From Escherichia coli (GTDB taxonomy: Bacteria; Pseudomonadota; Gammaproteobacteria; Enterobacterales; Enterobacteriaceae): 64,000 bases of DNA. The position numbers were made by a program. Location: the NCBI RefSeq assembly GCF_013122565.1, contig NZ_CP053258.1; one strand, 5' to 3'. Positions 40,801 through 43,800 of the stretch are shown here, piece by piece (position 1 is the stretch's first letter; every line of letters begins with the position of its first letter).

Positions 40801-43800
40801 ATTTTCTCTCTGTCTTCTTTTGTCTCCGAACAACTCATATACCATTATCCTGATTAATCTTCGCGTACTCATACGACGTCTTCCCCCTTCAACTATACCC
40901 TATTGAAATGATTTTATTGCTTTTGTTCAGACAACAAAAAAATGCGAGCTCTGACACAACAGTAAAAACCAACCGTTAAAGTATCTCTGTGTTTCCACAC
41001 TCTCCCTTGCTGAGAGGGAATTCTGAGCCCGGTCACTTGAGCTTGATTCACCATCTTTTTGGATTACTGGGAAGTTGTGACATCACATAATCCGCCCACG
41101 CCTGCATCATCGGTATATGCTGATCCAGTAGATCAGTCCGGTGATATGCTGCCTCAACCTTATTTTTCAGCGTGTGGGCAAGCGCCCTTTCCGCCAAATC
41201 CCTGTTCACTACACCAGTCCCTGAATGTTGAACGAAAACCATGTGCTGTTGCCACCCGTCCGGGTATATCACTGATGGCATTCTTTTTACGCAGAAAACT
41301 CGTCAACACCATATCTGAAAGGATCTGCTGCTTTCTGGGAGAAGGAAACACCAGTTCATCATGCAAACCACGTATATTTTCCAGAACGTGAATGGCCTGC
41401 CGGGATAAAGGAATACGATGCTGTATCCTAGCTTTCATTCTTTCTGCTGGTATCGTCCATATCCGCTTATGAAAATCAATTTCAGCCCAGCGCATTCCCC
41501 TGGCTTCGCCCGAACGGGTTGCTGTAAGTATCACCATTAATAACAGTGCTCGGGTAACATTATAAGGTTCATCTGTATACACGCTTGTCGCCACAAACAG
41601 CGGTAATTGCCTCCAGGGCATTGCCGGCTGATGTTCATCACGTCCTCTTGATTGCTGTGGAAGCAAATGTTCAACCACATCAACAGGATTTGCCACACAA
41701 AAACCATGCGCCCAGCCCCACTGCATAACAACATGAATACGCTGTTTAATCCGGCTTGCCGTTTCTGATAAGGTCAACCAGATTGGACGCAGTGTCTCTG
41801 CCACGTCCGCAGCCGTAATCTCATTCAGCGTTTTTGCTCCCAATTGAGGAAACACGTAATTTTCAAGCGTCGACAACCACTGCCTGACATGCTTTGGATT
41901 TTCCCATCCCGGTGACAATTCTGCATGTACACGCATGGCTGCATCGGCAAATGTTGGGATAACAACTTTTTCAGCTTCAGCCTTTTTGATCTCCAGAGGA
42001 TCATCACCTGCAGCAAGTTGCTCTCGCATTATCCGGGCAGTACGTGCAGCTTCGGCAATACTGACCTCAGGGTAAGTTCCCAATCCAGCATTACGCCTTT
42101 TTTGTGTCACCGGACTTACATAACGAAAAACCCATTTACCCCGCCCCTTTACTGAAGAAGGATGAAGGGTCAGCCCTGTAATTCCCCCATGAGGCAATGG
42201 TTTGTCATCAGGTTTGATATGCCTTGCTTTTGTATCAGTCAATACTGCCATACGCTAATTCCTGTTTCTCTAGTATGCCATCCAGTATGCCCTTATTCTC
42301 ACACTTCACTAAGCATACATTAGATAATATCGGACAGAAAAAATTTGTAATGTATTGTTTATAATTAAATTATACAACGCCTCTGGATTAAGTCAGATTT
42401 ATTTCAGGCGGTCCCCCTCACCGCCATATTTAAATAAATATCCTCCGGCATAGCCGGAGGTTTTTCAAATGCGCCTATAAGGCTCTCTTACCAGCCGCGC
42501 CCTAACAGGCGCACACGATCTGACATTTGCATCCAACTTCGTTACTTACGGCCCGTAAACGGGCTGCCCGGATAGGGAATCGATAACTGCTCTCCCATTT
42601 CATCCTCTTCAAGCTGGTGCTTTATGTAATCCTGTATCTTCGCCGTGTTCTTACCCACCGTATCGACGTAATACCCTCTGCACCAGAACTCCCTGTTCCT
42701 GTATTTGAATTTCAAATCCCCAAACTGCTCATAAAGCATCAGACTGCTTTTCCCTTTCAGATATCCCATAAAGCCGGATACGCTCATTTTGGGCGGGATC
42801 TCCACAAGCATATGGATATGATCTGCACAGCATTCAGCTTCAAGAATCCGTACGCTTTTCCACTCACACAGCTTTCTCAAAATACTGCCTATTGCTCTAC
42901 GCTTCTCTCTGTAGAACACTTGTCTTCGGTATTTTGGCGCAAAAACTATGTGATATTTACAGTTCCATCGGGTGTGCGCTAAGCTCTTTTCGTTCCCCAT
43001 TGGGACCCCCTTTTGATTTCTTGTTTGACACTTGCAGTTGCCAGACCGCAAGGTGTTTTAACAAATCAAAAGGGGTTTTAATAACTGGCTCAAAGCTGAA
43101 AGCTTTCCGGAACCCCCAGTCTAGCTGGGGGTTTTCTGTGCACAAGAAGAGCCCGTACGAAAGTACGGGCTTTTTTTTCGTATATTGCACACACCGGGTG
43201 CCCCCGCCCACGTCTGTTAGGGCGAGGGGAAATCGTACACATCAACTGTCTGATTGCTCAGTCAACAATCAAAATGCGCAAGAGAGTACAGAACATATAT
43301 GCGCTATCTGGTCACTTCCTGTAACTTCCTCACTTATTAAAATGCCCCCAACGGAAATACATGTCACATGCCATCATAAAATCGTTATGCCAGAGGAACC
43401 GACAATGGAAAAAATAGTAAATTAAGCACGGTACATAGCAGAGTAAAAAATAGGCTTCAAACCAAATCCGCCATTCCACAAGCGTTGCCAATACCGACAC
43501 CAGCGTAATCCACATCACTTCAATAACCAGCAATATGAATAACCGAAGCCAAAGCGGCTTGGCAAAAAAGGTCGACAACGCATTTTCACTGGAGAAAAAC
43601 AGATCGATTTCCTGCAAAAAAAGCCTGCCCAGAAAAGCGTACCGCTTGGAGAAGCGCAGAAAAAACAGATTAATCGCCAACACTACGCCACAAAGAATGA
43701 GCAATGCAATTATCGATTTAAACGTTAACCACTGCCCCTCTGTCACAAAAGAGTTACTGTTACGCAACGGGCTGATAGTAAGCAGGTTAACAACCGTTGA

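What the first reader, a model, noticed from the sequence alone, without database searches (positions are those of the whole stretch)
42470..43175. IS200-type element between the island att repeat and the biosynthetic locus
Seen in sequence: an intact Y1 transposase gene with hairpins at both ends lies about 45 nt after the att-like repeat and about 155 nt beyond the last gene of the lipid locus. It is co-directional with the locus and downstream of its last gene, so polar effects on the locus are unlikely.
Basis: partly seen in the sequence, partly recalled or inferred. Interest (0 to 1): 0.3.

Follow-up and report, generated by a model that had tools for sequence, protein, structure and literature searches.

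The report
IS200C insertion sequence after serX terminator

Summary
The finding is real and ordinary. An intact IS200-group insertion sequence is present. Its TnpA is identical to a RefSeq protein annotated "IS200C family transposase". Empty sites in E. coli K-12 and strain 105 show a precise 711-bp insertion with no target duplication. The preferred ends are 42433-43143, with tnpA on the minus strand and a 2-nt TT ambiguity.

The element starts 6 nt after the 14-nt serX repeat, not 45, and lies 186 nt beyond the ycdU stop, not 155.

The internal anatomy matches published IS200 to within about one base: left-end terminator hairpin, ribosome-site-sequestering stem-loop, H61/H63 and Y125.

IS200-group copies lie just after a GC hairpin plus T-run in 97 of 116 distinct sites, against 13 of 111 controls. 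This copy fits that pattern.

Novelty: already known. Interest: low.

The parts
42433..43143 (-). IS200C element, 711 bp. The top (tnpA) strand is the window minus strand: left end GTGCACAG... at 43143, right end ...GGATATTTATT at 42433. There is an inherent 2-nt TT ambiguity (up to 42435..43145).
   Evidence: Empty sites in K-12 and strain 105. Seven other E. coli copies are all 711 bp with the same ends. The right end is invariant (...ATATTTATT) and is followed by variable sequence in 45 copies.
42542..43000 (-). tnpA, Y1/HUH transposase, 152 aa plus stop. HUH at H61/H63, catalytic Y125, Q129.
   Evidence: Pfam and NCBIfam. PDB relatives 2ec2, 2f4f and IS608 TnpA 2a6m/2vjv. Residues. Y125F is the catalytically dead mutant in PMC4513863. 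Identical to the L001 protein annotated as IS200C family transposase.
43111..43133 (-). Left-end subterminal hairpin (element nt 11-33). It is the published bidirectional terminator of IS200 and the presumed TnpA-binding hairpin.
   Evidence: Folds (DNA -10.4 kcal/mol, z = -3.0). Published position is nt 12-34 (PMC4513863).
43007..43075 (-). [quoted passage not shown]
   Evidence: RNA fold (-57.9 kcal/mol for nt 1-154, z = -4.4). Published position is nt 69-138. Covered by the Rfam STnc490 match at 43010..43133.
42991..43080 (+). Inferred art200 antisense RNA gene (about 90 nt, opposite the 5'UTR and first three codons). Position transferred from Salmonella IS200 numbering, plus or minus 1-2 nt.
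   Evidence: The published art200 5' ends are at IS200 nt 153/154 and the RNA is 90 nt long (PMC4513863). Not tested here. The sigma-70 scan found no consensus promoter, which fits the paper's remark that the -10 element is almost unrecognisable.
42442..42460 (-). Right-end subterminal hairpin CCTCCGGCTATGCCGGAGG, 9 nt from the right end. On the + strand it reads as hairpin plus TTTTT, which is terminator-like.
   Evidence: DNA -10.0 kcal/mol, z = -3.5. Read directly from the sequence, it matches the left-end hairpin at 13 of 19 positions, with paired changes that keep the stem.
42470..42513 (-). Internal imperfect hairpin in the right-end region, between the tnpA stop and the right-end hairpin.
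   Evidence: Fold (fourth sequence).
43144..43147 (-). Target tetranucleotide TCTT abutting the left end. It is host DNA and is not duplicated.
   Evidence: The last four nt of 116 5' flanks are TTTT, TATT, TGTT, TCTT and similar, with T at -5 in 111, at -2 in 114 and at -1 in 103 of 116.
43150..43178 (+). serX intrinsic terminator (hairpin 43150..43171 plus T8). It is host DNA present in the empty sites. Read on the minus strand it is the hairpin plus CTTCTT after which the IS sits.
   Evidence: DNA -10.4 kcal/mol, z = -4.95.
42413..42426 (+). 14-nt direct repeat of the serX 3' end (CCCCCTCACCGCCA), marking the distal boundary of a 31.4-kb island at 11044..42426.
   Evidence: Alignment. tRNA-Ser(GGA) at 10956..11043. 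Synteny with K-12 resumes exactly after the repeat.
43330..44316 (-). ycdU, the last gene of the lipid-type locus. It overlaps the upstream ACP S-malonyltransferase gene by 4 nt.

Best explanation
The feature is one complete copy of IS200C, an IS200-group member of the IS200/IS605 family, 711 bp long at window 42433..43143 with its top strand on the minus strand.

Shown here:
- It carries a single gene for an intact HUH/Y1 transposase.
- It has no terminal inverted repeats.
- It has related subterminal hairpins at both ends.
- It made no target-site duplication.
- It sits directly 3' of the tetranucleotide TCTT that follows a GC-rich hairpin, which is the serX terminator read on the ycdU strand.

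Inferred from the IS608/ISDra2 paradigm: it moves by single-strand 'peel and paste'. TnpA binds the folded end hairpins of the top strand, cuts 3' of the flanking target at the left end and 3' of ...TATT at the right end, releases a single-stranded circle, and re-inserts it 3' of a TNTT-like target.

Inferred from Salmonella IS200: expression is held very low by the left-end terminator hairpin, the stem-loop that hides the ribosome-binding site, the art200 antisense RNA and Hfq.

In this window the element disrupts nothing. It separates a 14-nt tRNA-derived att repeat from the orphaned serX terminator. It lies 186 nt downstream of ycdU, behind a terminator-like hairpin and co-directional with ycdU.
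For: Identity:
- Pfam Y1_Tnp 3.8e-38 and NCBIfam transpos_IS200 equivalog.
- PDB relatives include the Sulfolobus IS200 transposases and IS608 TnpA.
- H61/H63, Y125 and Q129 are intact. Y125F is the dead mutant in PMC4513863.
- TnpA is identical to the PapRG-04-4 protein annotated as IS200C family, and one residue different from WP_000526135.1.
- 4,828 of 5,426 complete E. coli genomes have a match to a query of the element plus about 50-90 nt of flank on each side (window 42380..43230), median 2 places per genome. Some of these matched only the flank.

Ends and lack of duplication:
- K-12 and strain 105 empty sites.
- Seven other E. coli copies are all 711 bp with identical termini.

Anatomy:
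- Left-end hairpin at nt 11-33 and stem-loop at nt 69-137, against the published nt 12-34 and 69-138.
- Rfam STnc490 at 140.8 bits.
- Right-end hairpin.

Target:
- 97 of 116 unique 5' flanks have a GC hairpin ending within 14 nt of the junction, against 13 of 111 controls and 2 of 45 3' flanks.
- Mean MFE of the 50-nt flank is -19.3 kcal/mol, against -9.8 and -7.1.
- 39 of 49 occupied TTNTT sites carry the hairpin, against 15% of unoccupied TTNTT sites outside long ORFs.
Against: - There is no direct evidence that this copy is mobile or expressed. IS200 is notoriously dormant (PMC4513863, PMC12594629).
- The exact termini keep a 2-nt TT ambiguity, because TT flanks both junctions in essentially every copy. 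The choice of 42433..43143 rests on the IS608 paradigm (a conserved target 5' of the left end, an arbitrary flank 3' of the right end).
- The ISfinder reference entry for IS200C could not be consulted. The name comes from RefSeq annotation of identical or near-identical copies.
- The element is 711 bp, against 707 bp quoted for Salmonella IS200.
Confidence: 0.95

Rival explanations
1. The element has the ends the first reader gave (42470..43175), with the hairpin at 43150..43171 as its left-end hairpin.
For: The length (706 bp) is close to the canonical IS200 length. There are hairpins at both of those coordinates.
Against: The 43150..43171 hairpin, its T-run and the bases from 43144 or 43146 onward are present in IS-free sites of K-12 and strain 105. 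The segment 42433..42469, which includes the conserved right-end hairpin, is absent from those sites and present in every other copy.
Confidence: 0.01
2. History rival. The IS inserted after the island had integrated, as an independent hit on a recurrent hot spot at the serX terminator. In the alternative, the IS was already next to serX when the island integrated between them.
For: All four configurations exist: no island and no IS (K-12); IS only (DA33137, NCTC9064); island only (strain 105); both (the window, PapRG-04-4). serX-site copies are not each other's closest relatives. The DA33137 serX copy is identical to an htpX-site copy in another strain and differs at 9 positions from the window copy. 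The site fits the general target, a hairpin followed by TNTT.
Against: The junction is at the identical nucleotide and in the same orientation in all serX-site copies, which is also what descent predicts. Site-specific island integration at serX is itself expected to recur. Gene conversion among IS copies could erase the signal of descent. Only 14 of 5,426 genomes carry this junction.
Confidence: 0.45
3. The copy no longer acts as a transposon. It persists as a fixed locus whose relevant products are small RNAs (the 5' tnpA-derived sRNA and art200), as proposed for Salmonella.
For: IS200 is described as essentially immobile, and its 5' tnpA sRNA as domesticated in Salmonella (PMC5435999, PMC12594629). 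The 5' region is the best-conserved RNA signal.
Against: The transposase frame, catalytic residues and both ends are intact. Copies at many different E. coli sites differ by 0-9 nt and copy number reaches 35 per genome, which indicates fairly recent movement. The Salmonella targets belong to Salmonella pathogenicity island 1 (SPI-1); from my own knowledge, typical E. coli lacks that regulon.
Confidence: 0.2

Closest known systems
IS200C (E. coli member of the IS200 group, the name used by RefSeq/PGAP)
   Same: TnpA is identical to the PapRG-04-4 protein annotated as IS200C family, and 151 of 152 residues match WP_000526135.1. The element is 711 bp with the same termini as seven other E. coli copies, differing at 2-9 nt.
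   Different: Nothing of substance. Only the insertion site is particular: 1 of 5,426 complete genomes shares island repeat + IS + ycdU, and 14 share the IS-serX terminator junction.
IS200 of Salmonella enterica (founding member)
   Same: Single tnpA gene, left-end terminator hairpin, Shine-Dalgarno-sequestering stem-loop, catalytic Y125 and the art200 region at equivalent positions within about 1 nt. Strong match to the Rfam family built on it.
   Different: 711 bp against the quoted 707 bp. Sequence identity to the Salmonella element was not measured here.
IS1541 of Yersinia pestis/pseudotuberculosis
   Same: Collinear over the full length (710 against 711 bp, 87.5% identity). Same right-end terminus ...GGATATTTATT, same left-end hairpin and same placement after a hairpin plus T-run.
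   Different: The left end starts GTGCCCAG rather than GTGCACAG. IS1541 has a much higher copy number and forms tandem dimers.
IS608 (Helicobacter pylori) and ISDra2, the mechanistic paradigm for the family
   Same: Homologous HUH/Y1 TnpA (E about 5e-19 to 2a6m/2vhg). Subterminal hairpins, no inverted repeats, no duplication, and insertion 3' of a short specific target abutting the left end.
   Different: IS608 and ISDra2 also carry tnpB, and their targets are TTAC and TTGAT (from my own knowledge). Here there is no tnpB, the target is T-rich (TNTT), and there is a strong association with a flanking hairpin.

Membership tests
IS200/IS605 family, IS200 group | Encodes a Y1 (HUH) transposase of the TnpA_IS200 type | tested here: met
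   Pfam PF01797 E=3.8e-38 over the full model. NCBIfam NF033573 equivalog 147.7 bits against a cutoff of 55. PDB homologues.
IS200/IS605 family, IS200 group | Catalytic HUH motif and single catalytic tyrosine intact | tested here: met
   H61-I-H63, Y125 and Q129. Y125F is the dead mutant in PMC4513863.
IS200/IS605 family, IS200 group | tnpA is the only gene (no tnpB); size about 0.7 kb | tested here: met
   A 711-bp element containing one 152-aa Y1 ORF. The other ORFs in the list are overlapping antisense frames.
IS200/IS605 family, IS200 group | No terminal inverted repeats; subterminal hairpins at both ends | tested here: met
   Left-end hairpin at nt 11-33 and right-end hairpin 9 nt from the end. 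The termini GTGCACAG... and ...GATATTTATT are not inverted repeats.
IS200/IS605 family, IS200 group | No target-site duplication on insertion | tested here: met
   Occupied against empty sites: exactly 711 bp extra, with only a 2-nt positional ambiguity.
IS200/IS605 family, IS200 group | Oriented insertion 3' of a short conserved target that abuts the left end | tested here: met
   In 116 unique 5' flanks, T occurs at -5 in 111, at -2 in 114 and at -1 in 103. The last four nt are TTTT, TATT, TGTT, TCTT and similar. This copy has TCTT.
IS200 proper (Salmonella/E. coli/Yersinia lineage) | Left-end terminator hairpin (nt 12-34) and Shine-Dalgarno-sequestering 5'UTR stem-loop (nt 69-138) | tested here: met
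   Predicted at nt 11-33 and 69-137. Rfam RF01405 140.8 bits against a gathering score of 56.
IS200 proper (Salmonella/E. coli/Yersinia lineage) | Expression of the art200 antisense RNA and the processed 5' tnpA sRNA | not testable with these tools
   The sequence region is present. No consensus promoter was found, as the literature leads one to expect.
IS200C (ISfinder isoform definition) | Near-identity to the ISfinder IS200C reference sequence | not testable with these tools
   ISfinder is not available. A proxy is met: identical or near-identical to RefSeq copies named IS200C.
Active transposon | Demonstrated excision or transposition | not testable with these tools
   Only indirect evidence: intact gene and ends, and near-identical copies at many loci.

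The most novel reading that the evidence does not exclude
IS200-group elements may not simply choose a T-rich tetranucleotide. They may recognise the folded hairpin of an intrinsic terminator on single-stranded DNA and insert just after its T-tract, in the direction of transcription. Terminators of tRNA, sRNA and protein genes (serX, micC, htpX, parE) would then be recurrent hot spots. The element's own end hairpins would replace the terminator it displaces, which could explain why these insertions are so well tolerated. The association is measured here. Whether it reflects targeting rather than purifying selection, and whether it is already described in the classical IS200/IS1541 papers that I could not read, remains open.
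Probability: 0.25. Interest if true: 0.35.

Novelty: already known. Interest (0 to 1): 0.1.

Why it matters
It matters little for biology. This is a correctly recognised copy of one of the commonest small insertion sequences of enterobacteria, sitting in a harmless place.

It has three practical uses.
- The exact ends (42433..43143), target (TCTT) and empty-site sequence are now defined. This keeps the serX terminator and the island att repeat from being mis-annotated as parts of the IS.
- The configuration island repeat + IS200C + ycdU is rare (1 of 5,426 complete E. coli genomes) and could serve as a lineage marker.
- This copy illustrates a strong, quantifiable habit of the IS200 group: sitting immediately behind intrinsic terminators. 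That habit helps explain why these elements are tolerated.

Tried and rejected
- **Literature on terminator-adjacent insertion.** I looked for a statement that IS200 or IS1541 inserts after terminators. Five full-text searches found none. The classical papers (Odaert 1998, PMC106867; Beuzon and Casadesus 1997, PMC146608), the family review (DOI 10.1128/microbiolspec.MDNA3-0039-2014) and PMC7190074 are not held. I therefore cannot say whether the pattern is already published.
- **Timing of the IS relative to the island.** I compared nucleotide differences among eight copies. The result is inconclusive. serX-site copies are not monophyletic, but gene conversion cannot be excluded.
- **Promoters.** The sigma-70 scan found no promoter for tnpA or art200 inside the element. 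This is uninformative, because the published promoters are weak or non-consensus.
- **Weak Rfam hits.** Matches to the Leu and Thr leaders and anti-hemB at 43106..43246 fall far below their gathering scores. They are just the serX terminator hairpin and were rejected.
- **The 121-aa and 177-aa + strand ORFs overlapping the element.** I considered them as possible genes. I rejected them as antisense or mechanical ORFs, because the 711-bp family has a single recognised gene. These ORFs were not themselves searched.
- **Other copies in the window.** I checked for further copies or fragments of the element and found none.

Full report
**What is there**

The interval contains a 152-aa ORF on the minus strand (42542..43000). 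It matches the Pfam Y1_Tnp model end to end (E = 3.8e-38) and the NCBIfam IS200 transposase equivalog (147.7 bits). Its solved relatives are the Sulfolobus IS200-type transposases and IS608 and ISDra2 TnpA.

The HUH motif (H61, H63), the tyrosine Y125 and Q129 are all present. Y125F is the catalytically dead mutant used for Salmonella IS200 (PMC4513863). Just upstream on the same strand, Rfam finds the IS200 5' region (STnc490, 140.8 bits against a gathering score of 56) at 43010..43133.

**Genomic setting**

The window is E. coli-like.
- tRNA-Ser(GGA), which is serX, lies at 10956..11043, preceded by ghrA and ycdX as in K-12.
- A 31.4-kb island follows. It ends with a P4-type integrase gene (41160..42251, minus strand) and a 14-nt direct repeat of the serX 3' end: CCCCCTCACCGCCA at 42413..42426, matching 11030..11043.
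- A 14-mer repeat alone is not significant in 64 kb; by my estimate several such pairs are expected by chance. Its position settles the matter. It sits exactly at the tRNA end, and K-12 synteny resumes exactly after it.
- After the IS come ycdU (43330..44316) and an ACP S-malonyltransferase gene that overlaps it by 4 nt. Further upstream are genes for a LolA-like protein, a MacB/FtsX-ABC exporter, two ketosynthases and a GcvT-like protein.
- K-12 keeps only the remnant ymdE (a pseudogene) and ycdU.

**Exact ends**

Two kinds of empty site were found.
- K-12 has neither the island nor the IS. There, serX and each of its downstream repeat units end ...CCTCACCGCCATATTTAAAGAAGAGCTCGTACGAAAGTACGGGCTTTTTTTTCG.
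- E. coli strain 105 has the same island end and repeat but no IS, and reads identically across the junction.

Against these, the window carries exactly 711 extra bases and no duplicated target. Because AA (TT on the tnpA strand) flanks both junctions, the insert can be written 42433..43143 through 42435..43145.

Seven other E. coli copies, at serX, htpX, parE, ymgL/ymgK and nifJ/ompN, are all 711 bp. All begin GTGCACAG and end GGATATTTATT. In 45 copies from other genomes the base after ...TATT is variable (T 27, G 8, C 6, A 4), while the two bases before GTGC are almost always TT. Under the IS608 paradigm the conserved target lies 5' of the left end and the flank 3' of the right end is arbitrary. 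That favours 42433..43143, with TCTT as the target. This last step is inference.

- The interval 42470..43175 is shifted.
- Its high end includes the hairpin at 43150..43171 plus a T-run. That hairpin is present in both empty sites, so it is the serX intrinsic terminator.
- Its low end (42470) is the foot of an internal imperfect hairpin at 42470..42513.
- The IS starts 6 nt after the att repeat, not 45. It lies 186 nt beyond the ycdU stop, not 155.
- None of this changes the conclusion that no gene is interrupted.

**Anatomy compared with published IS200**

Numbering runs from the left end (43143).
- The terminator-type hairpin folds at nt 11-33 (published nt 12-34).
- The long stem-loop that buries the Shine-Dalgarno sequence AAGGGGGU folds at nt 69-137 (published nt 69-138).
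- Both come, where the 154-nt leader folds at -57.9 kcal/mol (z = -4.4). Published positions are from PMC4513863.
- The start codon is at nt 144. The published art200 5' ends at nt 153/154 therefore map to about 42990-42991 on the + strand.
- Read directly from the sequence, the left-end and right-end hairpins match at 13 of 19 positions, with paired substitutions that preserve the stem. This is expected if one TnpA binds both.

**How it most likely works**

Shown here:
- an intact HUH/Y1 enzyme;
- subterminal hairpins;
- no inverted repeats;
- no duplication;
- oriented insertion after a short T-rich target.

Inferred from IS608 and ISDra2 (PMC5027513 and related papers): single-strand 'peel and paste' transposition through a circular single-stranded intermediate.

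Inferred from Salmonella IS200 (PMC4513863, PMC5435999): near-silence of tnpA through four mechanisms, namely the left-end terminator, the 5'UTR structure, art200 and Hfq.

By inference from K-12 map position and replichore, the top strand of this copy lies on the lagging-strand template. That is the family's known preference, but I could not test it.

**Placement after terminators**

A scan of species-representative genomes with the 25-nt left-end hairpin gave 120 loci.
- Of 116 distinct, non-tandem 5' flanks, 97 have a GC-rich hairpin ending within 14 nt of the junction, usually 3-8 nt, followed by a T-run.
- The comparison figures are 13 of 111 control segments and 2 of 45 3' flanks.
- Mean folding energy of the 50-nt flank is -19.3 kcal/mol, against -9.8 for controls and -7.1 for 3' flanks.
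- In the IS1541-type loci, 39 of 49 occupied TTNTT sites have such a hairpin. The figure is 8.6% for all unoccupied TTNTT sites and 15.3% for those outside long ORFs.
- The E. coli copies follow the rule: they sit after the htpX and parE terminators and directly after the MicC sRNA gene.

The window's copy fits the pattern. On the tnpA strand it follows AGCCCGTACTTTCGTACGGGCT-CTTCTT. Whether this reflects structure-aided targeting or survival of harmless insertions cannot be decided from genomes alone. I found no statement of the pattern in the held literature, and the classical IS200 and IS1541 papers are not held.

**Consequences in this window**

The IS lies downstream of ycdU on the same strand, beyond a terminator-like hairpin, so polarity on the locus is not expected.

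On the other side, the integrase start codon (42251) lies 181 nt beyond the right end on the same strand. The right-end hairpin is followed by ATATTTATTT and scores as terminator-like on that strand too. The integrase promoter-like sites lie inside the island and are untouched. The integrase is in any case frameshifted here.

In island-free strains such as DA33137 and NCTC9064, the same insertion separates serX from its own terminator. Read on the serX strand, the right-end hairpin is followed by TTTTT and could substitute as a terminator. This is a prediction only.

**History**

All four combinations of island and IS exist.
- Only PapRG-04-4 among 5,426 complete genomes shares the window's full arrangement.
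- Fourteen genomes share the IS-serX terminator junction.
- The window's copy differs by 2 nt from the PapRG-04-4 copy and by 6-9 nt from the others.
- The DA33137 serX copy is identical to an htpX-site copy in another strain.

This leaves IS-first and island-first about equally likely.

**Verdict**

This is a known element in a harmless place. Novelty: already known. Interest: low.

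Noticed in passing
window 41048..42251 (minus strand): The island's P4-type integrase gene is frameshifted. The ORF stops at 363 aa, while intact homologues in strains 105 and PapRG-04-4 are 400 aa. The C-terminal segment (RDLAERALAH...AAYHRTD..., including the catalytic-tyrosine region) lies in a separate overlapping ORF at 41048..41281. The island is probably no longer able to excise by itself.
   Followed up: partly
L005-L124; analysis: IS200-group copies sit immediately after a GC-rich hairpin plus T-run (an intrinsic-terminator shape) in 97 of 116 distinct sites, oriented with the terminated transcript. TTNTT sites without an IS carry such a hairpin in only 9-15% of cases. 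I found no statement of this in the held literature.
   Followed up: yes
L130 1787..2025 (E. coli GN25, nifJ-ompN intergenic): An IS200C copy abuts the 3' end of the MicC sRNA gene (Rfam MicC 101.7 bits, ending where the IS left end begins). This is another example of insertion right behind a terminator, here that of a regulatory sRNA.
   Followed up: partly
L005-L065: The exact 25-nt IS200 left-end hairpin occurs in metagenome-assembled genomes labelled Bacillota, Peptococcaceae, Saccharibacteria, Desulfovibrio/Mailhella, Elusimicrobiaceae and Oxalobacter. It is often 15-230 nt from the end of the retrieved locus, and sometimes from a true contig end. The first 8 nt of the left end are lineage-specific (GTGAAACG, GTTAAAAG, GTATGAAG...). 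This could be wide horizontal spread or binning artefacts.
   Followed up: no
L068 and L070 (Yersinia pestis): There are tandem IS1541 dimers in which the right end of one copy (...GGATATTTATT) is joined directly to the left end of the next (GTGCCCAG...). This fits the element's own TATT end serving as a target.
   Followed up: no
window 43010..43133 (minus strand): The Rfam STnc490 model matches the tnpA-sense strand and includes the left-end terminator hairpin. The literature describes STnc490/art200 as antisense to the tnpA 5'UTR (PMC4513863). The Rfam family seems to describe the sense 5' tnpA region.
   Followed up: no
L004 3830..4566 (K-12, between ycdU and serX) and L003 1697..2014: K-12 and NCTC9064 carry tandem repeat units of about 181 bp after serX. 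Each ends with the tRNA 3' end plus the terminator, and they are annotated RtT sRNA in RefSeq. The window has none of these. serX is followed directly by the island, which brings its own terminator-like hairpin (11052..11076 plus a T-run).
   Followed up: partly
window 44313..63659 (minus strand): Upstream of ycdU is a cluster with a FabD-like acyltransferase, a predicted 462-aa protein without Pfam hits, a LolA-like protein, a MacB/FtsX permease plus ABC ATPase, two ketosynthase genes (one with two ketosynthase units, 852 aa) and a GcvT-like protein. A two-partner secretion pair follows (ShlB-type TpsB at 58139..59758; TpsA with haemagglutinin repeats at 59847..63659). K-12 retains only ymdE (a pseudogene) and ycdU, next to IS3.
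   Followed up: partly
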